This document shows positions 14,324-63,881 of a stretch of 64,000 bases of DNA, in pieces. This stretch comes from an uncultured Piscirickettsiaceae bacterium (lineage in GTDB: Bacteria; Pseudomonadota; Gammaproteobacteria; GCF-002020875), in NCBI GenBank assembly GCA_964344135.1, contig CAYFMF010000003.1:442-64441 (forward strand), given 5' to 3'. Made by a program: the position numbers and the translations under genes. Position 1 is the first letter of the stretch. Each line of letters begins with the position of its first letter. The notes beneath the pieces were generated by a model. It was given only the letters and a program-made list of their open reading frames with translations. It was not told where the DNA came from and did no database searches.

Positions 14324-14335
14324 GAGGGACTCCAG

Positions 14336-14920: not shown

Positions 14921-14923
14921 CAG

Positions 14924-16567
14924 ATGATGCGCCCCCTGCACCGATTCCATGGCGGCATCCACCCGCAGCAACACAAGAAGCTGACACGGGATCGCGCTAT
15001 TGAGGCCGTTCCAGTGCCCGACGAGGTGGTAGTTACCCTCCACCAGGGGGTCGGAAGCGTCAACCGCCCCATTGTCTCTGTCGGTGACCCGGTCAAGAAG
15101 GGACAGCGGTTGAGCGAGTGCTTCAACCCCACCAGTGTACCGATCCACTCCCCCTGCACAGGAACCGTTACCGCCATTGAGAAACGCCCCTTCCCCCACC
15201 CCTCCGGGATGGAGGATCAGGCCATTGTAATCCGCTGCGTAGATAATCAGAGTACCCCCGTACCCTCTAGCGAGAAGCCAGAGCTGCAACCCCTGCTGCA
15301 GGAGCTCTCCCCGGAGGAGATTGTGACACGTATCCGGATGGGCGGGGTGATTGGTCTTGGTGGTGCCGGCTTTCCAACCTCCGTCAAGGTCCGTACAGGG
15401 ACCCAGCTCCCGATCAGAACCCTGATCATCAATGGCATGGAGTGCGAGCCCTACATCACCTGTGACGATGCACTGATGCGGGAGCAGGCGACAGAGATCA
15501 TCCACGGGATCGAGATCCTGGATCATCTGCTGAGACCGGAGGAGATCCTGGTGGGAGTTGAGGATAACAAGCCCGAGGCCATTCAGGCGATGAAAAAGGC
15601 TGCGGACCGCTCCGCCTCGCAGATCGAGATTATTACCACACCCACCATCTACCCCTCCGGTGGAGAGAGACAGCTGATCAAGATCCTGACCGGTCAGGAG
15701 GTACCCAGTGGCGGCCTCCCCCATGACCTCTCTATCCTCTGCCAGAATGTGGCAACAGCCAGCTCCATCTACCACACCCTGATCGGAGAACCACTGACAG
15801 AGCGCCTGGTCACCGTTACCGGAGACGGTGTGGAGAGGCCGGGAAACTACCGGGTTCCGATCGGCATGCCGATTGAGGAGTTGCTGCAGCAGTGCGCTGT
15901 TACCAGAGAGAGTGCCCGAATCACCGTTGGCGGCCCGATGATGGGATTCCCGCTGCTGAACCGGCGCAGCCCGATCACAAAAACGGTCAACTGCCTGATC
16001 GTGGAGAAGAGCAGCTCGCTTCCAGCTGCACCAACACGACGCAACTGCATCCGCTGTGCCGCCTGCAGTGATGCCTGCCCTGCACTGCTGCTCCCCCAGC
16101 AGCTCTACTGGGCAGCCCAGTCAAGAGACTTTGAGCGTACTGAGGCACTGCACCTCTTTGACTGCATTGAGTGTGGCTGCTGCAACCATGTCTGCCCGAG
16201 CCATATCCCGCTGGTGGAGTACTATCGCCATGCAAAGGGGGTGCTGCGCAGCCAGCAGCATGAGCAGAAGAAGGCGGATCGTGCCCGTAATCGCCATGAG
16301 TTCCGGGACGCTCGCCTGCTTCGGGAGAAGGAGGAGAAGGCAAGAAAACTGGCGAAGAAGCGGGCCGCTCTCAAGGCCAGGGAGAAGAGCGGAGGCCAGG
16401 ATGACAGTGGGAAGAAAGAGGCGATCCGTGCGGCCATTGAGCGGGCAAAGGCAAAGCGCTCTGCCATGAAGGGCAGCCCGGAGGCGGACCCGGCAGAAGA
16501 GCAGCAGGCCGAAAAAGAGCATGATTCAGATAAAAACAGCAATGGAGTGAGCAATGGTTCCGCATAA
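14924..16567 (+). CDS. rnfC: Rnf complex subunit C with a Lys/Glu/Arg-rich C-terminal tail
   Basis: 547 aa. NADH/FMN-binding region GGAGFPT, two ferredoxin CxxCxxCxxxCP motifs. The low-complexity tail resembles the extension of RsxC. Confidence 0.9.
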   Translation: MMRPLHRFHGGIHPQQHKKLTRDRAIEAVPVPDEVVVTLHQGVGSVNRPIVSVGDPVKKGQRLSECFNPTSVPIHSPCTGTVTAIEKRPFPHPSGMEDQAIVIRCVDNQSTPVPSSEKPELQPLLQELSPEEIVTRIRMGGVIGLGGAGFPTSVKVRTGTQLPIRTLIINGMECEPYITCDDALMREQATEIIHGIEILDHLLRPEEILVGVEDNKPEAIQAMKKAADRSASQIEIITTPTIYPSGGERQLIKILTGQEVPSGGLPHDLSILCQNVATASSIYHTLIGEPLTERLVTVTGDGVERPGNYRVPIGMPIEELLQQCAVTRESARITVGGPMMGFPLLNRRSPITKTVNCLIVEKSSSLPAAPTRRNCIRCAACSDACPALLLPQQLYWAAQSRDFERTEALHLFDCIECGCCNHVCPSHIPLVEYYRHAKGVLRSQQHEQKKADRARNRHEFRDARLLREKEEKARKLAKKRAALKAREKSGGQDDSGKKEAIRAAIERAKAKRSAMKGSPEADPAEEQQAEKEHDSDKNSNGVSNGSA

Positions 16568-17573
16568 CCCCAGTACAACAGCACGCGAGATGGGGATGGT
16601 TATCCTTGCCCTGATCCCCGGACTGCTGGCACTGACATGGATTTTTGGCGCCGGAATGCTGATCCATGCCGCGATCACTGTCACTACCGCCGTTGCAGCA
16701 GAGTCACTGATTCTGGCCCTCCGTGGGCGCTCACCGATGAGCGGCATCAGTGATCTCAGTGCAGTGCTCACCGCACTGCTGCTGGCTGCAGCACTGCCCC
16801 CTCTCCTCCCCTGGTGGATGGCCGTTCTGGGCACCCTGTTTGCGATCATTCTGGCCAAACAGCTCTACGGGGGGCTGGGACAGAATCCGTTTAACCCCGC
16901 CATGGTCGGCTATGTCATTCTGCTGATCTCCTTTCCACTGGAGATGACCAGCTGGCTCCCCCCCTCCGGACTGGATGGATCGACCATCGGGGTCATACAG
17001 ACACTACAGGTCATCCTTGGTGTTGGTGATTTTCCACCGCTCGACACCCTGACCGGGGCAACCCCACTGGATGCGATGAAGACCTCTCTGGACCAGGGGT
17101 TCACCATTCGTGAGAGCTGGGAGAGGGTTCCGCTGGGGATGATGGCTGGGGCGGGATGGGAGTGGATCAACCTGGCATTCCTCGCTGGAGGGCTGATCCT
17201 GCTGGCAACACGGACCATCTCCTGGCAGATACCGCTCAGCATGCTGGTTGCCCTGCATCTGACCGCCTTCCTCTTCAACACCATCGATCCCGCAAACTTC
17301 ACCACCCCGCTCTATCACCTGCTCAGCGGTGGCATCATGCTCGGTGCCTTCTTTATCGCAACCGACCCGGTCACCGCCAGCACCACACCGATGGGGAGAA
17401 TCTGGTTTGGTGCAGGCATTGGGGTTCTGGTCTATATCATACGGACCTGGGGCGGTTATCCCGATGCGGTCGCGTTCAGTGTTCTGCTGATGAACATGTT
17501 TGCCCCGCTGATTGACCACTTTACACAGCCTGCCGTCTATGGGGCACAGCAGTCGGAGGAGCACCGGGAGTGA
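16554..17573 (+). CDS. rnfD: Rnf complex subunit D
   Basis: 339 aa polytopic NqrB/RnfD family. Overlaps rnfC by 14 bp. Confidence 0.9.
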   Translation: MVPHNPSTTAREMGMVILALIPGLLALTWIFGAGMLIHAAITVTTAVAAESLILALRGRSPMSGISDLSAVLTALLLAAALPPLLPWWMAVLGTLFAIILAKQLYGGLGQNPFNPAMVGYVILLISFPLEMTSWLPPSGLDGSTIGVIQTLQVILGVGDFPPLDTLTGATPLDAMKTSLDQGFTIRESWERVPLGMMAGAGWEWINLAFLAGGLILLATRTISWQIPLSMLVALHLTAFLFNTIDPANFTTPLYHLLSGGIMLGAFFIATDPVTASTTPMGRIWFGAGIGVLVYIIRTWGGYPDAVAFSVLLMNMFAPLIDHFTQPAVYGAQQSEEHRE

Positions 17574-18298
17574 GCGAGCAGGAGAACAATGGGGTGATCC
17601 CCGAGTGGGTGCGTATCGCCCTGCGCAGTGCCGGGATGCTCGCGCTCTTTGCCCTCTTCGGAACCGCACTGGTTGCCGTCACCCATGACCTGACCCGGGA
17701 GCAGATTGCCGAGAACAAGCGACTTGCACTGCTCAAGTCACTGACACAACTGGTACCCGAATCCGAGTATGACAACAACCTGCTGGAGGATACTCGCCCC
17801 CTGCCGGCCAGTGATCTCCTGGGGACCAGCGAGATGACCAATGCCTACCTTGCCAAGCGTGATGGGGCCGTTCACACCATACTGATCACCCCAGCCACCC
17901 AGGAGGGGTACAACGGCACCATCAACCTGCTGGTTGCCATCCGGGCCGATGGCTCCCTCGCTGGTGTCCGTGTACTCGGTCACTCGGAGACCCCGGGGCT
18001 GGGCGACCTGATCGATGTCAAGAAGTCGGACTGGATCCACTCCTTTGCCGGCCACTCTCTGGACAATCTCACCAAGAAACAGTGGGGTGTGAAAAAGGAT
18101 GGTGGAATCTTTGACCAGTTTACCGGGGCAACCATCACCCCACGTGCAATTGTGAAGGCCGTTCACAAGAGCCTGCGCTATTTTGCAGAGCACCGCGAAC
18201 AACTGTTGTTGTGCGCCTCCATGCCCAGGAGCACCATTCGAAAAAGTGGCGAAACAGCGATAACCATCAGCAACCAACTATGTACAGATAGAGGATAG
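17570..18298 (+). CDS. rnfG: Rnf complex subunit G (FMN-binding)
   Basis: GTG start overlapping the rnfD stop. FMN-attachment motif [10 protein letters not shown]. Confidence 0.85.
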
Positions 18299-18309
18299 AG
18301 GGAACCACA

Positions 18310-19029
18310 ATGAGTGAAGAGACTTCCCAGGCGGCACCCGCTGTTGTTGACTACAGAAAAATCATCAATGATGGCCTCTGGACCAATAATGCAGGTCTGG
18401 TCCAGCTGCTGGGGCTCTGTCCACTGCTGGCGGTAACCACAACCACAATCAACGGATTGGGGCTGGGGCTTGCAACCACGCTGACCCTGATCATCTCCAA
18501 CCTGATGGTCTCCTCAATCCGCAATATCGTCACCAAGGAGATCCGTATCCCGGTCTTTGTCCTGATCATCGCCTGCACCGTAACCGGCATTGAGCTGGCG
18601 ATGAATGCCTGGTTCCACGAACTCTTCCTGGTGCTCGGTATCTTCATCCCCCTGATCGTCACCAACTGTGCCATTATCGGCCGTGCAGAGGCCTTTGCCA
18701 GCCGCAACTCGCTGCTCCCCTCGCTGGCTGATGCCATCAGTATGGGCATTGGTTTTACCCTGATTCTGATGCTGCTGGGTGGGATGCGCGAGATATTCGG
18801 TTTTGGAACCCTGCTTGCACAGTCTGACTTGATGTTTGGAGAGGGTGCAGGCTGGATGACCATGACCCTGGTTGAGGATTATCGCGGCTTCCTGCTTGCC
18901 ATCCTCCCCCCAGGCGCATTTATCGGGCTTGGACTGATCATCGCGGCAAAGAACCGGATTGATCAGCGGATGGAAATGGCCAGAGTGGAGTCCAGCCAGA
19001 GCCCGGATGCCGTGACACAGACCGCCTGA
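18310..19029 (+). CDS. rnfE: Rnf complex subunit E
   Basis: 239 aa. RnfA/RnfE family ([23 protein letters not shown]). Confidence 0.9.
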
Positions 19030-53940: not shown

Positions 53941-54612
53941 ATGCTCGTAAAAATTACTGTTCTGTCACTGGCAGCTCTTCTTTCACCCATTGCCGGCGCC
54001 TGGGATGGTCTGGACCGTGGAGGCGAGATTGAGGAGTCAATGACACTCACTCCCGACATTGAGAACGGAAAAAAACTCTATAAAACCTGTGCCTTCTGTC
54101 ACACACCGGATGGGTGGGGCATGGAGCCCGGAATCGGTAAATACCGGGTTCCGGGAACCTATCCACAACTGGCGGGCCAACACCAGTCGGTACTGATCAA
54201 GCAGCTCTACGATATCCGTCAGCTCAATCGGGACAACCCCACCATGTACCCCTTTACACTGGCCCGCTATATTGGAGGTGCCCAGGATGTTGCCGATGTA
54301 ACCGCCTACATCACCACCCTCTCCATCAACCACTTCAATCAGCATGGGGATGGATCTGATCTGGCGCTTGGAAAAGAGCTCTACGAGGAGAACTGCGTCA
54401 AGTGTCACGGGGAGAATGGTGAGGGAGATACTGAAAACTTCTACCCGCGCCTCTCCAACCAGCACTACCCCTATATGCTGAGACAGTTTGTCTGGATCAA
54501 GGATGGAAAGCGCAGAAACGCCAACAGCAAGATGGTCAAACAGATCCAGAGATTTACCTATCGCGACATGAAGGCGGTCATTGACTATGCCTCCAGACTG
54601 GATGCCCAGTAA
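53941..54612 (+). CDS. Periplasmic diheme cytochrome c (c4-like)
   Basis: 223 aa. Signal peptide, two CxxCH motifs (CAFCH, CVKCH) in two cytochrome-c domains with Met ligand regions. Confidence 0.75.
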   Translation: MLVKITVLSLAALLSPIAGAWDGLDRGGEIEESMTLTPDIENGKKLYKTCAFCHTPDGWGMEPGIGKYRVPGTYPQLAGQHQSVLIKQLYDIRQLNRDNPTMYPFTLARYIGGAQDVADVTAYITTLSINHFNQHGDGSDLALGKELYEENCVKCHGENGEGDTENFYPRLSNQHYPYMLRQFVWIKDGKRRNANSKMVKQIQRFTYRDMKAVIDYASRLDAQ

Positions 54613-54673
54613 CCTGCCTGTAGAAGAATAAAACACAACAACAGTCATAGAGCCTCTAGAGGGAGAGACCTAG

Positions 54674-55378
54674 ATGAAAAAACTACTGATTCCAGCCCTG
54701 ATCTTTATTGCCGGCATGGTGGCACTTGGGGGCGTCAATGTCTTCTTTGCCGCTACCAACGAGATGGAGTTCTGTACCTCCTGCCACTCGATGAAGATCA
54801 ACCTCGAGGAGTATCGCCACACCGTCCACTACGAGAATCAGTCCGGTGTTCAGGCCACCTGCTCGGACTGTCATGTACCCAAACAGTTCATCCCCAAGGT
54901 AATGGCCAAGATCATGGCGGCCAAGGATGTATACCACTGGGTCATGGGCACCATTGAGCCTGATGAGTCCCAACTGGTTTCAGCGGACAGCAGTGGCAAC
55001 TGTCCCGACCTCTTTATCCCTGTTGAGGAGGGCTCCAACCTCTGCGTCCCCAATTATGGGGATCCCTATAGCGAGGATGAGATGAGCGAGGAGGCTGAGG
55101 CGCGTCGTGAGGCGGCACTGGAGAAATACAATGCCTACCGCTGGAAGATGGCCAACAGTGTCTGGGACAAGATGAAGGCCACGGATTCACGTGAATGCAG
55201 AAACTGTCACTCCTTCGACAACATGAACCTCGACGAGCAGGACCGCAGTGCACGCAAGAAGCATGGTCGTGCCACCGACAAGGGTCAGACCTGTATCGAC
55301 TGCCACAAGGGGATAGCCCATGCCGAGCCGGATGAACCTGATGATGAAGAGGAAGAGGAAGAGGATGAAGAGGCATAG
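54674..55378 (+). CDS. NapC/NirT-family membrane-anchored tetraheme cytochrome c (quinol dehydrogenase type) with an acidic C-terminal tail
   Basis: 234 aa. N-terminal TM. Four CxxCH motifs (CTSCH, CSDCH, CRNCH, CIDCH). Tail DEPDDEEEEEEDEEA. Confidence 0.8.
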   Translation: MKKLLIPALIFIAGMVALGGVNVFFAATNEMEFCTSCHSMKINLEEYRHTVHYENQSGVQATCSDCHVPKQFIPKVMAKIMAAKDVYHWVMGTIEPDESQLVSADSSGNCPDLFIPVEEGSNLCVPNYGDPYSEDEMSEEAEARREAALEKYNAYRWKMANSVWDKMKATDSRECRNCHSFDNMNLDEQDRSARKKHGRATDKGQTCIDCHKGIAHAEPDEPDDEEEEEEDEEA

Positions 55379-55408
55379 CCCAGCCCACTGGATGCCGGCC
55401 TATCGGAA

Positions 55409-56365
55409 ATGAATCGGAGCAGTATCATGAAAACAATAACCACCATCGTACTATCCCTCCTCTTCTCCAGTGCCTGCCTCGCTGATGCCGCACTGGACCA
55501 GTCACTGCGCAGGGCTGTGATCAATGGGGAGCTTGCTGAGGTTAAACAGCTGATCAGCCAGGGTGCTGATATCAACAGTAGTGGAGAGTTTGGCCACACC
55601 CCACTGATCTATGCGGCCGAGGATGGTCAGATTGAGATTGCCCAGCTGCTGATTGAACATGGTGCCCGTATCGACCGGCAGACCAGGGGAGGATACACCG
55701 CCCTCTCCGCCGCTGCCGATGAAAGCAGCATTGCCCTGGTCTCCCTGCTCCTGAAGGCTGGAGCCGACCCACATATCAAGACCCGTAATGGAATGGATGC
55801 GCTGATGATTGCGGTCCGCAGCGGAGATGCAGATGTGATCTCGATGCTGATGGCCTATAACAGCAACATCAACACCGCAAACCGCCATGGACAGACCCCG
55901 TTGATGATCGCCTCCCAGAGCGGCAATATCGATGTGGTCCATATGATGTTGCTGGCTGATGCCGGCATGAACATCCGTGACAAGAATGGCAGAACCGCCC
56001 TGATGATCGCCGCAGACACCCAGAGCCTGGAGGTGGTAACCGCCCTGCTGAATCGTGGGGCCTTAACCTCGGTGACGGATGATCATGGTGCCACCGCCCT
56101 GCACTATGCAATCAAGCGCAAGGGAAGCGCCATTGCAGAGACCCTTCTCAACCGTGGCGCCAATGTCAATGTGGCAGATAACGACAGCTGGACCCCGTTA
56201 ATGGATGCGGTCAGCCGTGGAAACAGCAAACTGGCAAAACTGCTGATACAGCGAGGTGCCGATGTAGAGGTCCATGATCAGGAAGGCCACAGCCTCCCCC
56301 AGATCGCCGAGATGAACCGCCGCCACCAGCTGGCTGAATATCTTCAGGGGCTTATCAAGCGCTAG
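55409..56365 (+). CDS. Periplasmic ankyrin-repeat protein
   Basis: 318 aa. Signal peptide (start may be the MKTITTIVLSLLFSSACLA methionine at about 55427). About 8 tandem 33-residue ANK repeats (GxTPLxxAA...GADxN). Confidence 0.8.
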   Translation: MNRSSIMKTITTIVLSLLFSSACLADAALDQSLRRAVINGELAEVKQLISQGADINSSGEFGHTPLIYAAEDGQIEIAQLLIEHGARIDRQTRGGYTALSAAADESSIALVSLLLKAGADPHIKTRNGMDALMIAVRSGDADVISMLMAYNSNINTANRHGQTPLMIASQSGNIDVVHMMLLADAGMNIRDKNGRTALMIAADTQSLEVVTALLNRGALTSVTDDHGATALHYAIKRKGSAIAETLLNRGANVNVADNDSWTPLMDAVSRGNSKLAKLLIQRGADVEVHDQEGHSLPQIAEMNRRHQLAEYLQGLIKR

Positions 56366-56600
56366 CCGGTTACGGTAGCACCAACACCAAACCAATGCCG
56401 GATAACCTACAGAGCACTCCACCATGGAGAGAGCTCCTGTAGCTTAACGGCACAGAACCCACTGACGGGATTGGTGGCTCCGAAGCATGCGGGTTACTCG
56501 ATCACGAGCACCGTTCTCCAACAATATTGAGTACTTGATCTAGAGACCTAACTCGAATAAGGTACTGTTTCTGGTTATTCATGTTCAGGGGGAGAGGTAT

Positions 56601-57218
56601 ATGAGAAAGGTACTGCTTGGCACAATATTAACAACCATTCTGGCATCGCCGGTAACCATGGTTACAGCCGCAGAGGAGGCCGCTGCGGAGAAGGCTGCTG
56701 TAGCAGAGGATATCTCTGTCCACGTTCAAGAGAGTCGTGCTCTGGCCAAGAAGCTGTTTGTCAAACTGAAACATGCGCTGGTTACGGGGATGAAGGCGGG
56801 AGGCCCCTCTACGGCAATCACCGCCTGTAACGTACAGGCGCAGCCCATTACCCGTGCAGCATCCAACCGCCGTACCGGGCTCAATATTCGTCGCACCAGT
56901 CTGCGCCTGCGCAATCCAAAGAATGCCCCCGATGCCTGGGAGATTCGGGTTCTGGAACAGTTTGAGGGGCGCTTTGCCGCAGGTGAGGATCCCAGCAAGG
57001 TGGAGTACCACGAGGTGGTGGAACAGAAAGGTGGCGAACGACTCTTCCGTTACATGAAAGCGATCCCGGCCAGCAAGCCCTGCATGGTCTGTCATGGCGA
57101 GCTGATTGCACCGGATGTACTGAAGACCATTCGGGATCTCTATCCCTATGAGCAGGCAACCGGCTTCAAGCCGGGAGATCTTCGTGGTGCCTTCTCGGTC
57201 ACCAGAGAGCTCGATTGA
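56601..57218 (+). CDS. DUF3365/Tll0287-like periplasmic heme-c protein
   Basis: 205 aa. Signal peptide, PAS-like body, single C-terminal CxxCH (CMVCHG), as in Tll0287-family proteins. Confidence 0.55.
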   Translation: MRKVLLGTILTTILASPVTMVTAAEEAAAEKAAVAEDISVHVQESRALAKKLFVKLKHALVTGMKAGGPSTAITACNVQAQPITRAASNRRTGLNIRRTSLRLRNPKNAPDAWEIRVLEQFEGRFAAGEDPSKVEYHEVVEQKGGERLFRYMKAIPASKPCMVCHGELIAPDVLKTIRDLYPYEQATGFKPGDLRGAFSVTRELD

Positions 57219-57285
57219 TGTTGTAGTCCATTCAACAATAAGTTAAGAGCACCATGCCTGTGGAGGCGGGAATGGTGCGCTGTCG

Positions 57286-59283
57286 ATGTCAGCAGCGGAA
57301 GGGAGGAGTGCTGTGAACCGATTTGTACAGATCACAAGACTATGGGTGCTGATGCTTCTGCTTGGAGTATACGGCACAACCCTCTATGCGGCATCCGACA
57401 ACTCGAAGACGGGTGCAAAGAAAATCGTGCCCAACAAGGTCTGTATTAAATGCCACTCCGATGAGGAAAACAAATTTGAGACCCTCTATGAGGATGAGGA
57501 TGATGAGGAAGGGACCGAGGTCTACATCTACGTCGATGAGGAGAAGTTTGAGGAGAGTGTTCACGGCAAACAGAACTGTGTAGGGTGTCACACCAACATC
57601 ACCAAGAAGTACCACCAGGAACAGCCGGTGATCAGCGTGAGCTGTATCCAGTGCCACAAGGAGGAGTGGGAGAAGCAGCAGGGGGAGGAGCATCCCAGGT
57701 ATGATCGCCTCGATGTGGTGATGCAGCAGATCGACGGCTATATGGATTCGGTCCATGCCCGCCCCAGCATCGCAGACCAGTCCAGGACCAACGCCACCTG
57801 CCATGACTGTCACGACCCACATAACATCGGCACCCTCGGCAGTGAGGCCCGTGCCGACCATCGACTGAAGAACCCAGAAGTCTGCGGACGCTGTCACGAA
57901 GAGCAGAAAGAGGCCTACCTCACCTCCGCACATGGCAGGGAGGTGGTGGAGAATGGCAATAGTGAGGCCGCGGTCTGTTCCGACTGTCACACTACCCACA
58001 ACATCGACTCCCCGGACCGGGATCCCATCAAGCTGACGATTACCCAAAACTGTGGGGATTGCCATGAGGATGCCTACAAGACCTACCGCTCCTCCTACCA
58101 TGGGCAGGTAAACCGCCTGGGGTACACCAATACCGCAAAGTGTTATGACTGCCACGGCAGCCATGAACTCAAGAAGGTAGAGGACCCAACCTCAAGCGTC
58201 CATCTGGAGAACCGCCTGGAGACCTGCCAACAGTGTCATGAGGATGCGCCAGAGGGGTTTTTGAGCTTCCACGCCCATGCCAATGTCGATGACTATGAGC
58301 GTTATCCGGAGATCTATCTCACTGCAAAGTTCATGAACTACCTGATCATTGCGGTCTTTGCCTTCTTCTGGACCCATGTCCTGCTCTGGTTCCATCGTGA
58401 GTACAAGGATCGCAAGCAGGGCAAGGGGTATCAGCCTCCACCTGCAGCGCTGTTGGCAGCCAAGGAGCGGATCTATTTCCGTCGCTTCAGTGCAACCTGG
58501 CGGGTCATTCACCTGCTGTTTGCGGTCAGCACCATGACACTGGTGCTCACCGGGTCATCCCTGCTCTTCTCGCATACCGCCTGGGCTCCGGTCGTGATTG
58601 GTCTGCTGGGTGGGCCGGAGATCGAGGCCATTATTCACCGTACCGCAGCGACTACCTGGCTGTCGGTCTTCCTGGTCCACTTTGGAATTGCCAGCTACAA
58701 CATCATCAAGAACCGCAAGAGCTTCCGCTGGTTCGGCCCCACCTCCATGTTGCCCAACTGGCAGGATCTGCGTGATGTGGTTGCCATGTTCCGCTGGTTC
58801 TTCGGAAGAGCTGAACGTCCCGACTTTGACCGCTGGTCCTACTGGCAAAAGTTTGATTACTGGGCACCATTCTGGGGTGCAGGAGTGATTGGGCTGAGCG
58901 GAATGATGCTCTTCTCGCCAACCCTGGCTGCTACCGTCCTCCCTGGATACGTCTTCAACATTGCAACCATCATCCATGCGGAAGAGGCACTGCTGGCAAC
59001 CATGTTCCTGTTTACGGTCCACTTCTTCAATGCCCACTTCCGCCCGGACAAGTTCCCGATGAGCACAACCATCTTTACCGGGGCGATCCCGCTGGATGAG
59101 TTCAAGCATGAGCACCGTCTGGAGTATGAGCGCCTGAAAGAGAGTGGAGAGCTCTCCAGGTACCTGATCAAGAAGCCATCAAAGGCGATGCAGACCGGCT
59201 CCAACCTGCTCGGTGCCATCCTGATCTTCTCCGGATTGACGCTGTTGACCCTGGTGATGATCGGTTATATCAGCACGATGTAA
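57286..59283 (+). CDS. CbcL-like fusion: periplasmic nonaheme cytochrome c domain joined to a diheme cytochrome b (HydC/FdnI-type) membrane domain
   Basis: 665 aa. Nine CxxCH motifs (CIKCH, CVGCH, CIQCH, CHDCH, CGRCH, CSDCH, CGDCH, CYDCH, CQQCH), then about 5-6 TM helices with conserved His pairs (VIHLLF, IIHRTA, FLVHFG, TIIHAEE...TVHFFNAHF). Confidence 0.75.
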   Translation: MSAAEGRSAVNRFVQITRLWVLMLLLGVYGTTLYAASDNSKTGAKKIVPNKVCIKCHSDEENKFETLYEDEDDEEGTEVYIYVDEEKFEESVHGKQNCVGCHTNITKKYHQEQPVISVSCIQCHKEEWEKQQGEEHPRYDRLDVVMQQIDGYMDSVHARPSIADQSRTNATCHDCHDPHNIGTLGSEARADHRLKNPEVCGRCHEEQKEAYLTSAHGREVVENGNSEAAVCSDCHTTHNIDSPDRDPIKLTITQNCGDCHEDAYKTYRSSYHGQVNRLGYTNTAKCYDCHGSHELKKVEDPTSSVHLENRLETCQQCHEDAPEGFLSFHAHANVDDYERYPEIYLTAKFMNYLIIAVFAFFWTHVLLWFHREYKDRKQGKGYQPPPAALLAAKERIYFRRFSATWRVIHLLFAVSTMTLVLTGSSLLFSHTAWAPVVIGLLGGPEIEAIIHRTAATTWLSVFLVHFGIASYNIIKNRKSFRWFGPTSMLPNWQDLRDVVAMFRWFFGRAERPDFDRWSYWQKFDYWAPFWGAGVIGLSGMMLFSPTLAATVLPGYVFNIATIIHAEEALLATMFLFTVHFFNAHFRPDKFPMSTTIFTGAIPLDEFKHEHRLEYERLKESGELSRYLIKKPSKAMQTGSNLLGAILIFSGLTLLTLVMIGYISTM

Positions 59284-59292
59284 CAGCAGCCT

Positions 59293-59331
59293 CCCCTTAT
59301 ATATGCGGCCATAGCCGTCATATATAAGGGG
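59293..59331 (+). terminator. Strong GC-clamped hairpin downstream of the CbcL-like gene
   Basis: ccccttatatatg-cggccatagccg-catatataagggg: 13-bp stem. Weak or absent U-tract. Confidence 0.45.
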
Positions 59332-59510
59332 GGGGTGAACTGCCTCCTGCGCAAATTATTTCCTTGCATCAGAAGTTTTATTTGAATTATTATAGGAGTG
59401 TTCTGCGCGGGGGGCTGCCGGACTGATTAACCATCTATTTGACTCCTCCCGAATAGAGCAAAATTAATATTAATTTTAAATAAAATCTCTAAATAACTTT
59501 AGGAGGAGAT

Positions 59511-60107
59511 ATGAAAGCAACGAAACTTGCAGTAGCCGTTCTCGGCAGCTGTGCAATCAGTTTCTCTGCGTTCGCAGGAAACATGACAGGGGCTGACGGA
59601 TCCATGCTCGCCAACACCTGTGCTGGTTGTCACGGCACAGACGGAGCCAGCGTTGGTCCAGCCATCCCATCCATTGGTGGAATGTCTGCAACCTACATCA
59701 CCGACATGATGGCAGCATACAAGTCTGGTGATACCAACAGCACCATCATGGGCCGTATCGCAAAGGGCTACAGTGAGGATGAGGTTGGTGCGATCGCCAA
59801 CTTCTTCGCCGATCAGCCACAGTCCCGTGCAGACCAGTCCTTTGACAGTGCCAAGGTCGCCAAGGGGCAGAAGCTGCATGACAAGTACTGTGAGAAGTGT
59901 CACTCTGAGGGTGGCGCACTGGCAGATGACGATTCCGGCATTCTCGCTGGGCAGCTGATGCCTTATCTTGAGTACAGTATGGAGGATTTCCACAATGGTG
60001 ATCGCTCTATGCCGAAGAAGATGAAGAAGAAGGTCAAGAAGCTGAACAAGAAGGAAGGCGACGCTGGTGTTGACGCTATCTTCCACTACTACGCAAGCCA
60101 GCGCTAA
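59511..60107 (+). CDS. fccA: Flavocytochrome c sulfide dehydrogenase, diheme cytochrome subunit
   Basis: 198 aa. Signal peptide, two CxxCH motifs (CAGCHG, CEKCHS). Immediately upstream of fccB. Contains a Lys-rich insertion PKKMKKKVKKLNKKEG. Confidence 0.75.
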   Translation: MKATKLAVAVLGSCAISFSAFAGNMTGADGSMLANTCAGCHGTDGASVGPAIPSIGGMSATYITDMMAAYKSGDTNSTIMGRIAKGYSEDEVGAIANFFADQPQSRADQSFDSAKVAKGQKLHDKYCEKCHSEGGALADDDSGILAGQLMPYLEYSMEDFHNGDRSMPKKMKKKVKKLNKKEGDAGVDAIFHYYASQR

Positions 60108-60122
60108 GGAGGAGCTATAACA

Positions 60123-61451
60123 ATGAGTAAATTTAATCGTAGAGACTTTCTGAAGGTTTCTGGTAGTGCCGTAGGTGCCGCATCCGTTGCCGGTATGGGG
60201 CTGTATGCAGGTAACTCCTTCGCTGGCTCCAAGGGCCGCGTCGTTGTTGTTGGTGGTGGTATGGGCGGTGCAACAGCTGCCAAATACATCAAGCGCGCTG
60301 ATGCTGCCATTGATGTCACCATCATCGAGCCTAACAAGACCTACTACACTGGTTTCACCAGTAATCTGACACTCTCAGGCATGGTCACCATGGATCAGCT
60401 GGCTCACACCTATGAGGGTCTGGCTGCAATGGGAATCAACATTGTTCACGACGCTGTGACCGAGATCGGTGACAATGCGGTGAAGACTGCAGGTGGCGGC
60501 AGCTACGGCTTTGACCGCTGTGTGGTCTCTCCTGGTGTGGACTTCAAGTTTGTTGAGGGACACAGTGAGGAGGTTGCCAACAACTCCGTAACCCACGCCT
60601 ACAAGTCTGGCCACCAGATGAATCTGCTGGGGCAGCAGCTCAAGGCGATGAAGGATGGCGGTACAGTTGTAATTGCTGCACCACGCAACCCATTCCGTTG
60701 CCCTCCCGGACCTTATGAGCGTACCAGCCAGATCGCTGCCTACCTCAAGGCCAACAAGCCAAAATCAAAGATCATTGTTCTTGATCCAAAGGACAAGTTC
60801 TCCAAGTTTGGTCTGTTCCGCGAGGCGTGGTCTGTGCACTACGGCTTCGATGGTGCCCAGGATGGTGGTGAAAACTCCATGATCACCTGGGTCAAGGGTG
60901 CAGCCGGTGGTGCACTGGAGGCCGTTGAGGCTGACAGCAACACTGCAGTTGCAGCTGTTGAGGAGTTCAAGGCGGACGTACTGAATGTTATCCCCGACAT
61001 GAAGGCGGGTAATGTTGCCTCTGCCAATGGGCTGACTGATGGTGACTGGTGTCCAGTAGACCTGCAGACTTTCGAATCCAAGAAGCGTGCAAACATCTAC
61101 GTAATTGGTGACTCCAGTGCTGCCAAGGGTCTGCCGAAGTCTGGCTATGCGGCCAGCTCAGAGGCAAAGGTCTGTGCAGCAGCGGTTGTAGCGGCACTGA
61201 ACGGCAACTCTGCCCCAATCCCCGCCTACACCAACACCTGCTACAGTGTGGTTGCACCGAACGATGCGTTCTCTGTTGCAGCGGTCTACCAGCTGGCAGC
61301 AGACAAGTCGAAGGTCATGAAGGTCTCCGGCGGTCTGACTCCAAGCGGTGACAAGCGCAACGCTGCGTTCCGTGAGCGTGAGGTTGCCTATGCACTGAGC
61401 TGGTATGACAACATCACCTCTGATGCCTTCAACAACGCCAAGAAGTTGTAA
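60123..61451 (+). CDS. fccB: Flavocytochrome c sulfide dehydrogenase, flavoprotein subunit
   Basis: 442 aa. Tat signal SKFNRRDFLK, FAD-binding VVVVGGGMGGATAAKY. Confidence 0.85.
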   Translation: MSKFNRRDFLKVSGSAVGAASVAGMGLYAGNSFAGSKGRVVVVGGGMGGATAAKYIKRADAAIDVTIIEPNKTYYTGFTSNLTLSGMVTMDQLAHTYEGLAAMGINIVHDAVTEIGDNAVKTAGGGSYGFDRCVVSPGVDFKFVEGHSEEVANNSVTHAYKSGHQMNLLGQQLKAMKDGGTVVIAAPRNPFRCPPGPYERTSQIAAYLKANKPKSKIIVLDPKDKFSKFGLFREAWSVHYGFDGAQDGGENSMITWVKGAAGGALEAVEADSNTAVAAVEEFKADVLNVIPDMKAGNVASANGLTDGDWCPVDLQTFESKKRANIYVIGDSSAAKGLPKSGYAASSEAKVCAAAVVAALNGNSAPIPAYTNTCYSVVAPNDAFSVAAVYQLAADKSKVMKVSGGLTPSGDKRNAAFREREVAYALSWYDNITSDAFNNAKKL

Positions 61452-61495
61452 AGCAGTAGAGGCGTTGTCTTAACAAGCAACGCTGGAAAAAGAGA

Positions 61496-61525
61496 CCCTC
61501 AGAAGGCAACTTCTGAGGGTTTTTT
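61496..61525 (+). terminator. Rho-independent terminator after fccB
   Basis: ccctcagaag-gcaa-cttctgaggg followed by TTTTTT. Confidence 0.8.
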
Positions 61526-61556
61526 CATGAACATGGAAACAGAGTGTACGCTCTAT

Positions 61557-61826
61557 CTACAGCGCTTTCTGGACTACACTTGCCCTGACCATCCGCGGAA
61601 ACAGCCTTAGAACATCATCAACGGAGATCAGACCGTTATACATTGTAATCTCCCTTCTCTTCACCAGCTCCTGGATAATGACCCGCCGGACCTTCAGAAT
61701 CTCACACAGAAGGCAGGATGACATGAACCTTTTATTGCACCCATCGCAACTGAGCTCAATGGAGCAACCATTAATCAACTGATCCAGCTCTCTCTCAGAC
61801 ATACAATTCAAACCCCCTCTCTTCAT
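61557..61826 (-). CDS. Hypothetical small Cys-rich protein
   Basis: 89 aa (or about 81 aa from MSERELDQ). Cys pattern CSIELSCDGCNKRFMSSCLLC. Between fccB and soxA. Function unknown. Confidence 0.35.
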   Translation of the reverse strand: MKRGGLNCMSERELDQLINGCSIELSCDGCNKRFMSSCLLCEILKVRRVIIQELVKRREITMYNGLISVDDVLRLFPRMVRASVVQKAL

Positions 61827-62096: not shown

Positions 62097-62957
62097 CTAC
62101 TTGCGATAGGCAGGACCATTAAACTCCAGACCATTACTCATATAGGTATGGAAGTACTCCAGGTTGCGATACTCCCTGCTCTGGGCCTTGAATGGCTTGG
62201 CGCGTACCTGCTTGTTACACCCCCCGAAACGGCGGTGCAGGGTACCAAAGCCATCACCCGACTTGGACTTGCCTGACCACTTGGCACGGAATACCGGGAA
62301 ACCTGTGGTATGCCCCAATGCGGGAGAGAGCAGATCGGCACGAATATGCTGGCCTGACTGATAGACGTGGCAGTCCGCACAGGCAAGGTTGAGCTGTCCA
62401 CGCTTGGCATAGAAGAAGCGCTTGCCATCCTCATAGGCTGCCAGCGCCTTTGGATCATCAGGAATCACTACATTGACCTTTTGGCCACGCGCCTCATAGT
62501 TGATATAGGCTGAGAGGTGGGCCATCTTGCCCTTTTTCCACTTCAGTGGCTTCTCGCCATTCTCCTTACGACACTTGTTGATGTCCCCCTCGAGGGTCAC
62601 AACCTCACCACTCTTGGCATCCCAGTGTGGATAGCGGACACGCACTGCAGCAACATCATCTCCGAAGCAGCTGGCATAGCCATTACCGTTGGCAAAGGGC
62701 TTGTTCCACTCCTCTTCACCCTCTTCCACAAACTGCTCATAGGGGGGGAACTCCTCGATGGCCTCCCACTGCTGGCGAAAGGTTGGACTGATTGAGTAGA
62801 CCCCATTCTTGAAGTCACCCATCTCGGTCTGCGGGAACTTCTCTACAAAGTAGGCACGGAAGGCCTTCAAATCTTCTTCAGGGGTTGCGTGCACATTGGC
62901 TACAGCCATAGTCAGGGCGACAGCACATACACGCTTCAGGATAGTCCCGGCATTCAA
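62097..62957 (-). CDS. soxA: Sulfur-oxidation c-type cytochrome SoxA
   Basis: 286 aa. Signal peptide, heme motif CADCH, conserved SoxA C-terminal region. Downstream of soxYZ. Confidence 0.8.
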   Translation of the reverse strand: MNAGTILKRVCAVALTMAVANVHATPEEDLKAFRAYFVEKFPQTEMGDFKNGVYSISPTFRQQWEAIEEFPPYEQFVEEGEEEWNKPFANGNGYASCFGDDVAAVRVRYPHWDAKSGEVVTLEGDINKCRKENGEKPLKWKKGKMAHLSAYINYEARGQKVNVVIPDDPKALAAYEDGKRFFYAKRGQLNLACADCHVYQSGQHIRADLLSPALGHTTGFPVFRAKWSGKSKSGDGFGTLHRRFGGCNKQVRAKPFKAQSREYRNLEYFHTYMSNGLEFNGPAYRK

Positions 62958-63065
62958 AACGTTCTCCTTTGGTTGTCATCATTTCCCCTCCCACCGTTTT
63001 GGTGGGAGGGGTTCCAGGTTTTGGCAATCTTCTCTTTCAATACCTACAGGGTGCAGGCAGTGAAC

Positions 63066-63380
63066 TTATTTTGCTGCCTTGCTTCCTGTTGCACTCTCTC
63101 CCTTGTTGTCGGTCCAGGTGACGCTAATCTTGTCACCCTTCTCTCCCGCGACCTTGAATCGCAGATAGGGGTTCTTCGAGATTGTGGAGTTGAAGTCCGC
63201 AGTCATGAAGACAGCACCGTTCTTCTCCGCAGTTACTGTCTGGATAAAGTGTTCAGGAATCTTCTCACCTGTCTTCTTGTCCTTTCTCAGACCGGTCTCC
63301 ATTGGGTGACTCATCAGACACTTGATGTCAATGACACCCTTTTTTGCCTTGGCTCTCAGCTTTACTGCTTTCTTTGCCAT
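63066..63380 (-). CDS. soxZ: Thiosulfate-oxidation carrier complex protein SoxZ
   Basis: 104 aa. Typical SoxZ size and sequence (IKCLMSHPMETG...FKVAGEKGDKISVTWTDNKG). Confidence 0.8.
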   Translation of the reverse strand: MAKKAVKLRAKAKKGVIDIKCLMSHPMETGLRKDKKTGEKIPEHFIQTVTAEKNGAVFMTADFNSTISKNPYLRFKVAGEKGDKISVTWTDNKGESATGSKAAK

Positions 63381-63437
63381 TTTGTTTTCCTCTAATTTTT
63401 CTGTTTATTCCATAGTGGGATATGCAGGCACTGCCTA

Positions 63438-63881
63438 CTAGCCACCACATCCGCCGATGGTTACCTTGACCTGTGTCTTGGCGTTCACGGTGCCCGATGC
63501 GGTCTTGACTACGCCATAGACATCACCCGTCTTGCCCATCTTGAGACGGGTAGAGACATAGGGAACAGCACCTTCACTAAGGTGATAGGTAGCGGCAAGT
63601 GGGCGCCCATTGGCAGCGGCGACAATACTGATGCTCTCGACGATACCGTCAATACTGGTGGCATCAACTGTTACCGGTACAACTGCGCCATTCTCAGCAA
63701 TCTCCGGGGCCTTGATCTTGACAGCACCACTGGCATCACCTACATCAGCAAATGTGTCAGCCTCCATTACCGCTGTTGGCCAGGCAGCCAGTACAGCACG
63801 TGGGGTCAACAGGCCGGCGCCCAGTGCAGCTGTAACCGCACTACCGGCAAGTGTTCCCTTCATAAACAATCTTCTTTTCAT
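63438..63881 (-). CDS. soxY: Thiosulfate-oxidation carrier protein SoxY
   Basis: 147 aa. Tat-like leader RRLFMKGTLAGSAV. Invariant C-terminal swinging-arm motif VKVTIGGCGG. Confidence 0.9.
   Translation of the reverse strand: MKRRLFMKGTLAGSAVTAALGAGLLTPRAVLAAWPTAVMEADTFADVGDASGAVKIKAPEIAENGAVVPVTVDATSIDGIVESISIVAAANGRPLAATYHLSEGAVPYVSTRLKMGKTGDVYGVVKTASGTVNAKTQVKVTIGGCGG

What the first reader, a model, noticed from the sequence alone, without database searches (positions are those of the whole stretch)
53941..59283. Multi-cytochrome electron-transfer island upstream of fccAB/soxYZA with two different quinone-interacting modules
Five co-oriented genes encode a diheme c4-like cytochrome, a NapC/NirT tetraheme quinol dehydrogenase, a periplasmic ankyrin-repeat protein, a Tll0287/DUF3365-like heme-c protein and a CbcL-like nonaheme-c/diheme-b fusion. 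CbcL-type proteins are known from Geobacter as inner-membrane quinone oxidoreductases for low-potential extracellular electron transfer. I am not aware of a described role for one in a sulfur oxidiser next to flavocytochrome c and Sox. The island may couple periplasmic sulfur-oxidation cytochromes to the quinone pool in either direction, or support electron transfer to an external acceptor.
Basis: partly seen in the sequence, partly recalled or inferred. Interest (0 to 1): 0.65.

Follow-up and report, generated by a model that had tools for sequence, protein, structure and literature searches.

The report
Membrane cytochrome partnered with sulfide dehydrogenase
The five cytochrome-related genes are real, and the large membrane cytochrome belongs to a sulfur-bacteria branch of a known family that usually sits next to the sulfide-oxidising enzyme FccAB, which suggests an unreported route for electrons from sulfide into the membrane quinone pool.

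Summary

The fusion belongs to the known CbcL/MtrH/MtoC family (more than 700 clusters at 50% identity). It falls in a distinct clade with 100% bootstrap support, found in sulfur oxidisers.
- No member of this clade has an MtoA-type decaheme or porin neighbour, whereas 19 of 77 loci outside it do.
- In the sister subclade, 28 of 36 loci have fccA-fccB directly adjacent, often within 0-35 nt.
- In the window's own subclade the conserved partners are a c4 plus an ankyrin protein, and Tll0287.
- Two relatives carry all the same genes in a different order.

Best reading: this is an inner-membrane link between periplasmic sulfur-oxidation cytochromes and quinone, most likely sulfide to FccAB to nine hemes to two b hemes to quinone, working as an FdnI-type redox loop. 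The direction is inferred, not shown. Extracellular electron transfer is not supported. I found no paper describing the FccAB link. Verdict: new variant of a known kind, interest about 0.6.

The parts
53941..54612 (+). Diheme cytochrome c4 with a signal peptide. First gene of the c4-NapC-Ank module.
   Evidence: 2 CXXCH. PF00034 matches twice. PDB cytochromes c4 8uf3, 6q2u and 1etp match at E 1e-15 to 2e-10. It is homologous to FccA of the same window (22% identity, E 2e-9).
54674..55378 (+). NapC/NirT-family tetraheme membrane cytochrome. It has one N-terminal TM helix, an insert of about 50 aa between hemes 2 and 3, and an acidic C-terminal tail.
   Evidence: PF03264 scores 207.6 bits. TIGR02161 scores 195 bits, below its 310 cut-off. 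4 CXXCH and a TM helix at residues 8-26. NrfH 2j7a matches at 1.4e-6. The long form is confined to about 19 clusters.
55409..56365 (+). Secreted (periplasmic) ankyrin-repeat protein. Public gene calls use an alternative start at 55427.
   Evidence: PF12796 at 4e-68. Signal-peptide-like N-terminus. Ankyrin proteins of about 315 aa follow c4 next to the fusion gene in Magnetofaba, Sedimenticola, Ca. Venteria and L084.
56366..56600 (.). 235-nt intergenic gap, the boundary between the c4-NapC-Ank module and the Tll0287-fusion module.
   Evidence: The modules are separated and inverted relative to each other in L084 and L092. No terminator-like site was found.
56601..57218 (+). Tll0287-like periplasmic monoheme c protein. 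The heme is probably Cys/His-ligated.
   Evidence: PF11845 scores 94.7 bits. PDB 5b82 matches at 6e-9. Cys76 and CMVCH are invariant in six orthologues, and the gene always lies directly upstream of the fusion gene.
57286..57396 (+). Fusion protein residues 1-37: signal peptide or N-terminal anchor. Public gene calls start at 57313.
   Evidence: Hydrophobic segment at residues 19-37. Gene calls.
57397..58305 (+). Fusion protein residues 38-340: periplasmic nine-heme c domain, probably all bis-His.
   Evidence: 9 CXXCH. All nine motifs are invariant. Ten further His are invariant or nearly so, and no Met is invariant, in 49 sequences. This matches what is reported for CbcL.
58306..59283 (+). 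Fusion protein residues 341-665: six-TM domain with an FdnI/HyaC-type diheme cytochrome b core in TM2-5.
59287..59337 (+). Hairpin with 19-nt arms just after the fusion gene stop. It has no T run, so it is not a canonical terminator.
59511..60107 (+). fccA, the diheme subunit of flavocytochrome c sulfide dehydrogenase.
   Evidence: 2 CXXCH. PF00034. 83% identical to the fccA of L084.
60123..61451 (+). fccB, the flavoprotein subunit, with a TAT signal.
   Evidence: PF21706 at 2e-42, PF09242 at 6e-23, and a TAT signal.
61490..61526 (+). Stem-loop followed by TTTTTT, an intrinsic terminator after fccB.
   Evidence: The same stem was reported on the - strand.
62097..63881 (-). soxA (62097-62957), soxZ (63066-63380) and soxY (63438-63881), transcribed convergently.
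   Evidence: TIGR04484 SoxA scores 238 bits. SoxY, SoxZ and SoxA orthologues sit beside the same genes in L084 and L092.

Best explanation
The 665-aa protein is an inner-membrane oxidoreductase of the CbcL/MtrH/MtoC family. A periplasmic wire of nine bis-His c hemes is fused to an FdnI-type diheme cytochrome b. The quinone site probably lies at the cytoplasmic-side heme, as in FdnI.

The protein belongs to a clade of this family that serves the periplasmic cytochromes of sulfur oxidation rather than an outer-membrane conduit. Each member is encoded next to a c4-fold diheme partner. That partner is FccA, with its flavoprotein FccB, in the sister subclade, and a c4 plus an ankyrin protein in the window's subclade. 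Here all of these lie together beside soxYZA.

The most likely flow is: sulfide is oxidised by FccB in the periplasm, and electrons pass from the FccA hemes to the nine-heme wire, across the membrane through the two b hemes, and reduce quinone with cytoplasmic protons. That would be a charge-separating sulfide:quinone redox loop built like formate dehydrogenase-N. It would conserve energy that monotopic SQR does not.

c4 and the NapC-type protein give parallel links between the cytochrome c level, the quinone pool and the terminal oxidases or reductases. The Tll0287-like Cys/His heme protein is a partner or redox sensor of the wire. The ankyrin protein is a scaffold.

Shown: the architecture, the fold, the heme ligands, the clade and the gene linkage. 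Inferred: physical contact with FccA, the direction of flow, the quinone-site position, and the roles of Tll0287 and the ankyrin protein.
For: Architecture: nine CXXCH and six TM helices. All nine motifs and ten extra His are conserved, with no conserved Met, as reported for CbcL.

Heme ligands and quinone site: the four FdnI heme ligands align with invariant H409, H451, H564 and H579. The FdnI stretch holding N110, G112 and Q113, the inhibitor (HQNO) site named from memory of the FdnI structure paper, aligns with the most conserved block of the family, with Q113, K114 and W118 matching Q521, K522 and W526.

Clade: 100% NJ bootstrap for the sulfur-oxidiser clade, split into the window's subclade and the fccAB-linked subclade.

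Linkage: 28 of 36 loci at 53-65% identity have fccA-fccB directly adjacent. In the <53% class 0 of 77 do, and 19 of those 77 have an MtoA-like decaheme. fccA starts -1 to about 35 nt after the fusion stop. Independent gene calls with Pfam labels confirm the triad in Ca. Thiodiazotropha. The flanks of the triads are unrelated.

Window subclade: the fusion-c4-Ank order is seen in Magnetofaba australis, Sedimenticola and Ca. Venteria, and Tll0287 lies directly upstream in 7 of 19 loci.

Rearranged relatives: L084 (80% identity) and L092 (74%) keep c4, NapC, Ank, Tll0287, the fusion, fccAB and soxYZA together despite inversions.

Partner homology: c4 and FccA are homologous.

Transcription: no + strand terminator was found before the one after fccB.

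Energetics, from memory and textbook values: S0/HS- at about -270 mV to ubiquinone at about +100 mV spans about 370 mV, similar to formate to menaquinone in Fdn-N.
Against: No experiment or structure shows that FccA docks on the nine-heme domain.

Gene linkage does not give direction. FdnI-fold proteins also run backwards, as in PhsC (from memory), and Geobacter CbcL is a quinol oxidase (PMC9129911).

In the window's own subclade the conserved neighbour is a His/Met c4, which is probably high-potential and would more naturally accept than donate electrons. Only 4 of 19 loci of that subclade have fccAB within 10 kb.

In this window fccAB is separated from the fusion gene by 227 nt and a hairpin, and probably has its own promoter.

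The FCSD hemes of Allochromatium lie near 0 mV (from memory), which leaves little driving force for the transmembrane step under standard conditions.

The hhalign match to FdnI has only 43% probability. Pfam and TIGRFAM matches to the b domain are below their curated cut-offs.

The trees are NJ only.
Confidence: 0.5

Rival explanations
1. The direction is reversed and the protein acts as a bc1 bypass. The fusion protein, like the NapC-type protein, oxidises quinol and reduces the c4 cytochrome, which then feeds the cbb3 oxidase or periplasmic denitrification enzymes. FccAB and Sox simply reduce the same c4 pool and are co-located for that reason.
For: The conserved partner in the window's subclade is a His/Met diheme c4. 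c4 is a known cbb3 donor, and the solved cbb3 complex entries 8smr and 8snh also hold a c4 chain that matches the window's c4. In the Escarpia symbiont the c4-Ank-fusion group lies near a cd1 NirS-like gene, a cupredoxin and a NapC fusion. The characterised family member CbcL is a quinol oxidase that reduces a periplasmic cytochrome.
Against: With an FdnI-type cytoplasmic-side quinone site, quinol oxidation would dissipate membrane potential, which is a poor substitute for bc1. This reading does not explain why 28 of 36 sister-clade loci are wired to FccAB, a dehydrogenase that donates electrons, with near-overlapping genes.
Confidence: 0.22
2. Extracellular electron transfer. As for CbcL in Geobacter or MtoC/MtrH in iron oxidisers and reducers, the protein connects the quinone pool to an outer-membrane conduit and an external mineral, electrode or partner cell.
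For: It belongs to the family. Many beta- and alpha-proteobacterial relatives sit beside a 10-heme MtoA-like gene, a porin-sized gene of about 750 aa and a small MtoD-like monoheme gene.
Against: None of the 55 loci of the sulfur-oxidiser clade has a decaheme neighbour, against 19 of 77 outside it. No other cytochrome or porin-cytochrome gene occurs in the 64-kb window. A conduit elsewhere in the genome could not be excluded.
Confidence: 0.07
3. A reverse loop driven by proton-motive force. Quinol is oxidised at the cytoplasmic side and the membrane potential pushes electrons out onto low-potential hemes (the nine-heme wire, Tll0287). These reduce a sulfur compound in the periplasm, for example stored sulfur or polysulfide through FccAB running backwards during anoxia, as proposed for PhsC.
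For: The FdnI fold with a probable cytoplasmic-side quinone site. Bis-His hemes, with CbcL at -194 mV. A Tll0287-type Cys/His heme, which has a low potential in the founding member (from memory). Sulfur-storing bacteria are known to respire stored sulfur (from memory).
Against: FccAB reversal has not been reported. With ubiquinone the reaction is about 370 mV uphill, more than one membrane potential can supply. No sulfur or polysulfide reductase genes lie in the locus.
Confidence: 0.06
4. The modules are neighbours without a shared function. Cytochrome genes cluster loosely in these genomes, and the fusion protein has an unrelated partner.
For: In the window's subclade some relatives have the fusion gene alone, or only with Tll0287 (L085, L087-L090). 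Gene order is not conserved.
Against: The same seven gene families stay together through rearrangements at 74-80% identity. fccAB is adjacent in 78% of sister-clade loci, where chance would give well under 1% for one or a few fccAB copies in a genome of several Mb (the chance figure is my estimate).
Confidence: 0.1

Closest known systems
MtoC / MtrH (Gallionella capsiferriformans, Dechloromonas aromatica, Rhodoferax ferrireducens), the beta-proteobacterial branch of the CbcL/MtrH/MtoC family (PMC6295460)
   Same: The length (about 650-700 aa), the 8-9 CXXCH and the six-TM b domain are the same. Proteins in Gallionella, Rhodoferax, Sulfuritalea and Sulfuricaulis MAGs that have MtoD-, MtoA- and MtoB-like neighbours are 44-48% identical. 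Like them, the window protein is encoded next to its presumed periplasmic cytochrome partner.
   Different: It is a separate clade with 100% bootstrap support. It has no MtoA, MtoB or MtoD neighbours. Its partners are FccAB, or c4 plus ankyrin plus Tll0287. MtoC is proposed to take electrons from extracellular Fe(II). Here the donor would be a periplasmic sulfide dehydrogenase.
CbcL (GSU0274) of Geobacter sulfurreducens
   Same: Nine c hemes, all apparently bis-His, with ten extra conserved His, fused to a HydC/FdnI-like diheme b domain with six TM helices.
   Different: CbcL is only about 35% identical to the MtoC group according to PMC6295460. I could not obtain its sequence for a direct comparison. 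CbcL oxidises menaquinol and reduces PpcA for low-potential extracellular acceptors. This clade lives in ubiquinone-type sulfur oxidisers (the quinone type is assumed from taxonomy) with FccAB or c4 partners and no conduit.
FdnI, the gamma subunit of E. coli formate dehydrogenase-N (PDB 1kqf/1kqg), and HyaC
   Different: Sequence similarity is marginal (16% identity, profile scores below cut-offs). There are two extra TM helices. The electron input is a covalently fused nine-heme domain rather than an Fe-S subunit.
Flavocytochrome c sulfide dehydrogenase with soluble acceptors, and SQR
   Same: The same FccAB enzyme and the same net chemistry as SQR (sulfide to quinone) if the proposed chain operates.
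   Different: Classical FccAB is described as reducing soluble cytochromes c, and its physiological role is unresolved, since A. vinosum fccAB mutants oxidise sulfide normally (PMC11267869). SQR is monotopic and not charge-separating. Membrane-bound FCSDs have been reported from Thiobacillus sp. W5 and Ectothiorhodospira vacuolata (references seen, papers not readable), but no link to this protein is known.

Membership tests
CbcL/MtrH/MtoC family | N-terminal periplasmic multiheme c domain (nine CXXCH in CbcL) | tested here: met
   Nine CXXCH at residues 53-318 behind a signal or anchor segment. All nine are invariant in 49 homologues.
CbcL/MtrH/MtoC family | All c hemes bis-His: about ten conserved non-motif His and no conserved Met in the periplasmic domain | tested here: met
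   H93, H110, H157, H216, H238, H272, H293 and H331 are invariant. H179 and H306 are at least 90% conserved. No Met is invariant before residue 350. PMC9129911 reports the same pattern for CbcL. Ligation itself was not measured.
CbcL/MtrH/MtoC family | C-terminal six-TM HydC/FdnI-like diheme cytochrome b with conserved His ligands | tested here: met
CbcL/MtrH/MtoC family | Sequence homology to named members | tested here: inconclusive
   44-48% identity over the full length to proteins in Gallionella, Rhodoferax and Sulfuricaulis MAGs that carry MtoD/MtoA/MtoB-like neighbours. I found no sequence of GSU0274 or of the type MtoC/MtrH proteins to compare directly (one search found none).
CbcL/MtrH/MtoC family (as an extracellular electron transfer component) | Genomic or functional link to an outer-membrane porin-cytochrome conduit or extracellular acceptor | tested here: not met
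   None of the 55 loci of the clade has a decaheme neighbour, against 19 of 77 in the other clades. Nothing of the kind occurs in the 64-kb window. The rest of the genome was not searched.
CbcL/MtrH/MtoC family | Quinol oxidase or quinone reductase activity | not testable with these tools
   Needs biochemistry.
NapC/NirT family (ORF 54674-55378) | N-terminal TM helix plus four CXXCH and a match to PF03264 | tested here: met
   207.6 bits against a cut-off of 24.1. TM helix at residues 8-26 and four motifs. It is not an equivalog of NapC, NirT or TorC, because all NCBIfam scores are below their cut-offs.
Cytochrome c4 (ORF 53941-54612) | Two class I c domains, each with CXXCH and a downstream Met | tested here: met
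   Two PF00034 stretches. Solved c4 proteins match at E 1e-15 to 2e-10. Met residues lie downstream of both motifs in the translation.
Tll0287-like (PF11845) | PAS-like domain with one heme c (CXXCH near the C-terminus) and a distal Cys ligand | tested here: met
   94.7 bits against a cut-off of 24.1. 5b82 matches at 6e-9. Cys76 and CMVCH are invariant in six orthologues. The phmmer alignment places Cys76 four residues away from the Tll0287 Cys, so the ligand equivalence is probable, not proven.
Flavocytochrome c sulfide dehydrogenase FccAB | Diheme FccA followed by a TAT-exported flavoprotein with FCSD central and flavin-binding domains | tested here: met
   PF21706 at 2e-42, PF09242 at 6e-23 and a TAT signal, with a diheme gene 15 nt upstream.

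The most novel reading that the evidence does not exclude
FccAB plus this nine-heme/diheme-b protein form a charge-separating sulfide:quinone oxidoreductase, a redox loop analogous to formate dehydrogenase-N. It would be a third, energy-conserving route of sulfide oxidation beside SQR and soluble FccAB, and it would give flavocytochrome c a physiological acceptor and role. The same scaffold would have been re-used with different periplasmic partners: MtoD/MtoA for iron, FccAB for sulfide, and c4-ankyrin for an unknown donor.
Probability: 0.35. Interest if true: 0.8.

Novelty: new variant of a known kind. Interest (0 to 1): 0.6.

Why it matters
What flavocytochrome c sulfide dehydrogenase does in vivo, and where its electrons go, has been unclear for decades. 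Mutants of Allochromatium oxidise sulfide normally, and the enzyme is usually drawn as feeding an unspecified soluble cytochrome c (PMC11267869).

A conserved membrane partner, encoded in the same tight operon in Thiodiazotropha, Sedimenticola, Tepidiphilus, Rhodospirillales and many metagenomic lineages, gives a concrete and testable acceptor. If the FdnI-type topology holds, it also gives a way to gain proton-motive force directly from sulfide.

The result also changes how CbcL/MtoC hits should be read in genome surveys. In this clade they should not be scored as evidence of extracellular electron transfer or iron oxidation. Symbionts of tubeworms and lucinid clams carry these genes, so their energy budgets are affected.

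Tried and rejected
1. I looked for a named Geobacter CbcL sequence among the 50% representatives. Ten nine-heme representatives were looked up and none carried an organism or CbcL name. No direct identity to GSU0274 is therefore given.

2. Single-sequence phmmer of the b domain against the PDB found nothing meaningful. Only fold search and a profile comparison recovered FdnI.

No paper links fccAB with CbcL, MtoC or MtrH, and none describes a periplasmic ankyrin paired with c4. Three papers could not be read: Sousa et al. 2018 on the genomic context of FCSD, Kostanjevecki et al. 2000 and Visser et al. 1997 on membrane-bound FCSD. A prior mention there cannot be excluded.

4. Mis-assembly or frameshift of the fusion is rejected.

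5. A mobile island is not indicated. No integrase-sized gene or tRNA lies next to the locus; the only tRNAs are at 45.2 kb. GC is only slightly lower than in the rest of the window.

6. The 89-aa ORF between fccB and soxA has no homologue outside the same species and is not treated as part of the system.

7. The promoter scan gave no more sites than shuffled sequence and was not used.

8. The most similar solved sequence to the nine-heme domain is 28pb_A, named only 'Cytochrome c' (E 1e-6). Its identity could not be established.

Full report
**1.

The window has five + strand ORFs at exactly the reported coordinates.

| ORF | Size | Assignment | Main evidence |
|---|---|---|---|
| 53941-54612 | 223 aa | Diheme cytochrome c4 | Two CXXCH; two PF00034 stretches; solved c4 proteins at E 1e-15 to 2e-10 |
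| 54674-55378 | 234 aa | NapC/NirT-family tetraheme | One N-terminal TM helix, four CXXCH; PF03264 207.6 bits vs cut-off 24.1 |
| 55409-56365 | 318 aa | Ankyrin-repeat protein | PF12796 4e-68; signal-peptide-like N-terminus |
| 56601-57218 | 205 aa | Tll0287-like | PF11845 94.7 bits; PDB 5b82 at 6e-9; one CXXCH |
| 57286-59283 | 665 aa | Nine-heme c / diheme b fusion | Nine CXXCH followed by six hydrophobic helices |

The NapC-type protein is not an equivalog of NapC, NirT or TorC by NCBIfam cut-offs. In the Tll0287-like protein, Cys76 is invariant in six orthologues, which fits the Cys/His heme of the founding member.

fccA, fccB, a terminator, and then soxA, soxZ and soxY on the opposite strand follow.

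The fusion is real. It is one open frame and is identical in three independent assemblies. More than a hundred homologues listed at 53-81% identity, nearly all of about 650 aa, have the same architecture.

**2. The fusion protein**

An alignment of 49 homologues shows several things.
- All nine heme motifs are invariant.
- Ten further histidines in the periplasmic part are invariant or nearly so.
- There is no conserved methionine in that part.
- The membrane domain is very strongly conserved.

PMC9129911 reports the same pattern for the periplasmic domain of Geobacter CbcL: nine bis-His hemes, ten extra conserved His, apparent potential -194 mV.

An AlphaFold2 model (mean pLDDT 79, pTM 0.72) was searched against solved structures.
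- Foldseek's only confident match is FdnI, the cytochrome b subunit of E. coli formate dehydrogenase-N (probability 1.00, TM 0.69). HyaC follows.

A profile comparison with the E. coli FdnI sequence has only 43% probability (E 2.5e-4). Even so, it places the four heme-ligand histidines of FdnI (H18, H57, H155, H169) exactly on the invariant H409, H451, H564 and H579.

The FdnI core therefore corresponds to helices 2-5, with an extra helix on each side.

With the heme domain in the periplasm, H451 and H564 lie near the periplasmic face and H409 and H579 near the cytoplasmic face, as in FdnI.

The FdnI stretch K108-YNAGQK-W118 includes the residues I recall as lining the quinone-inhibitor (HQNO) site at the cytoplasmic heme, from the FdnI structure paper. 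It aligns with the most conserved block of the family, with Q113, K114 and W118 on Q521, K522 and W526. A cytoplasmic-side quinone site is thus a reasonable inference, but not a result.

**3. Family and clade**

PMC6295460 defined the CbcL/MtrH/MtoC family. It describes the family as widespread (15 phyla), present in both iron reducers and iron oxidisers, and about 35% identical between CbcL and MtoC. It noted one homologue in the sulfur oxidiser Sulfuricaulis.

I collected 80 genomic and 80 metagenomic loci with up to 10 kb of flank. I then searched them with the window's proteins.

| Identity to the window protein | Loci with enough flank | fccB within 10 kb | fccA-fccB directly adjacent | c4 + Ank | Tll0287 | MtoA-like decaheme |
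|---|---|---|---|---|---|---|
| >= 65% (the window's subclade) | 19 | 4 | 0 | 7 | 7 | 0 |
| 53-65% (sister subclade) | 36 | 28 | 28 | 1 | 0 | 0 |
| < 53% (other clades) | 77 | 0 | 0 | 0 | 0 | 19 |

A neighbour-joining tree with 60 bootstrap replicates puts all sequences of at least 53% identity in one clade (100%). That clade splits into the window's subclade (100%) and an fccAB-linked subclade.

In the other clades the frequent neighbours are a 10-heme MtoA-like gene, a porin-sized gene and a small MtoD-like monoheme gene.

**4. The linkage to fccAB**

In the sister subclade, 28 of 36 loci with enough flank have fccA-fccB directly adjacent. The pair is either co-directional downstream or divergent upstream.
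- fccA starts between -1 and about 35 nt after the stop of the fusion gene.
- The genes flanking the three-gene unit differ from locus to locus.
- Independent gene calls with Pfam labels show the same triad in a Candidatus Thiodiazotropha genome.
- Carriers include Sedimenticola, Thiodiazotropha, Tepidiphilus and a Rhodospirillales MAG.

For one or a few fccAB copies in a genome of several Mb, chance adjacency would be well under 1%. That figure is my estimate.

**5. The window's own subclade**

Here the conserved unit is the fusion gene followed by a c4 and an ankyrin protein of about 315 aa. It is seen in Magnetofaba australis IT-1, a Sedimenticola symbiont and Candidatus Venteria. A Tll0287-like gene lies directly upstream in the closest relatives.

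Two relatives, at 80% and 74% identity, carry every gene of the window's locus: c4, NapC, Ank, Tll0287, the fusion, fccAB and soxYZA, and in one of them also acs. In both, the three modules c4-NapC-Ank, Tll0287-fusion and fccAB are in different relative orientations.

This matches the two long intergenic gaps in the window (235 and 227 nt). The second gap contains a hairpin without a T run and an AT-rich stretch ahead of fccA.

Genes that stay together through rearrangement are better evidence of a shared function than fixed gene order would be.

c4 and FccA are homologous diheme proteins. In both subclades, therefore, the gene next to the fusion gene encodes a c4-fold partner. More distant clades also have c4-like di- or tetraheme genes downstream.

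**6. Mechanism**

The firm part is that this is an inner-membrane protein able to move electrons between periplasmic c-type cytochromes and the quinone pool through two transmembrane b hemes, and that in this clade the periplasmic side is the sulfur-oxidation machinery.

The direction is inferred. FccAB is a dehydrogenase. Where it is the hard-wired partner, electrons should run from sulfide through FAD and the FccA hemes into the nine-heme wire, across the membrane, and onto quinone.

If the quinone site is at the cytoplasmic face, as in FdnI, this is a charge-separating redox loop. The span from sulfide to ubiquinone (about 370 mV, textbook values from memory) is about the same as from formate to menaquinone in Fdn-N.

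Several points argue against simply transferring this to the window's protein.
- Its conserved neighbour is a His/Met c4, probably high-potential.
- fccAB here has its own transcription signals.
- FdnI-fold proteins can run in reverse (PhsC, from memory), and CbcL itself oxidises quinol.

I therefore give the general role about 0.65-0.7 and the sulfide-to-quinone direction about 0.4 for this locus. The combined confidence is 0.5.

The main rival is quinol oxidation feeding c4 and then cbb3 oxidase or denitrification enzymes. The Escarpia symbiont locus has nirS-like, cupredoxin and NapC-fusion genes nearby.

Extracellular electron transfer has no contextual support in this clade.

The roles of Tll0287 (partner or redox sensor) and of the ankyrin protein (scaffold) are guesses. 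No literature on either pairing was found.

**7. Novelty**

The architecture and the family are known. What appears to be new is a sulfur-oxidiser clade of the family with FccAB (or c4-ankyrin and Tll0287) as its encoded partner, and the redox-loop reading that follows from it.

Ten full-text searches found no paper making this link. The papers that mention both subjects treat them separately.

The main paper on the genomic context of FCSD (Sousa et al. 2018) and the two papers on membrane-bound FCSD were not readable. That keeps the novelty claim provisional.

**8. Verdict**

The finding is a new variant of a known kind.

Interest is 0.6. A specialist in sulfur bioenergetics would find the conserved fusion-fccAB operon unexpected, and it makes the old question of FccAB's acceptor directly testable. 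The mechanism, however, rests on comparative genomics and fold inference only.

Noticed in passing
window 13742-19029 (+): A complete rnfABCDGE operon (Rnf-Nqr, Fe-S, RnfC, RnfD, FMN-binding and RnfE families) lies in the same window. It points to ferredoxin-linked reverse or forward electron flow in this sulfur oxidiser.
   Followed up: partly
window 59287-59337: A hairpin with 19-nt arms (89% complementary) lies immediately after the stop of the fusion gene, with no T run. It may be an RNA-stability or attenuation element between the fusion gene and fccAB.
   Followed up: no
window 55325-55378 and 57484-57513: Two acidic runs are peculiar to this lineage. One is the NapC C-terminal tail EPDEPDDEEEEEEDEEA. 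The other is a YEDEDDEEG insert near heme 1 of the fusion protein, where relatives have ERDDGT. They may be docking or cation-binding surfaces.
   Followed up: no
window 54674-55378: The NapC/NirT protein carries an insert of about 50 aa between hemes 2 and 3. Only about 19 protein clusters (>= 63% identity, all uncultured Gammaproteobacteria) share this long form. Typical relatives are 180-200 aa.
   Followed up: partly
L004 1151-3991 (-), Escarpia laminata endosymbiont: A 946-aa protein fuses a NapC/NirT tetraheme module to an ethylbenzene-dehydrogenase-like heme-b domain and a DOMON domain. It sits next to a cd1 NirS-like gene and a cupredoxin, about 6 kb from the c4-Ank-fusion group.
   Followed up: no
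L026-L029, L057, L058 (Alphaproteobacteria); L147, L148: Some loci carry a second copy of the fusion gene, convergent and 4-6 kb downstream in most of the alpha-proteobacterial loci and in tandem in L147 and L148. The copies with an ORF call (L028, L029, L058) have 5-7 hemes, and tetraheme c4-like genes lie in between.
   Followed up: no
window 61557-61826 (-): An 89-aa Cys-rich ORF between fccB and soxA is called as a gene in public assemblies. It has no Pfam match and no homologue outside the same species.
   Followed up: yes
PDB entry 28pb chain A, against window 57286-59283: The closest solved sequence to the nine-heme domain is a 278-aa chain named only 'Cytochrome c' (E 1e-6). Its first CXXCH motifs line up in the same order as those of the window protein. 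It did not appear among the fold-search matches listed, and its identity is unknown.
   Followed up: partly
L084 2997-4430 (+): The closest relative (80% identity) has an extra 477-aa multiheme cytochrome (PF13447) between soxA and fccB. The window lacks it.
   Followed up: no
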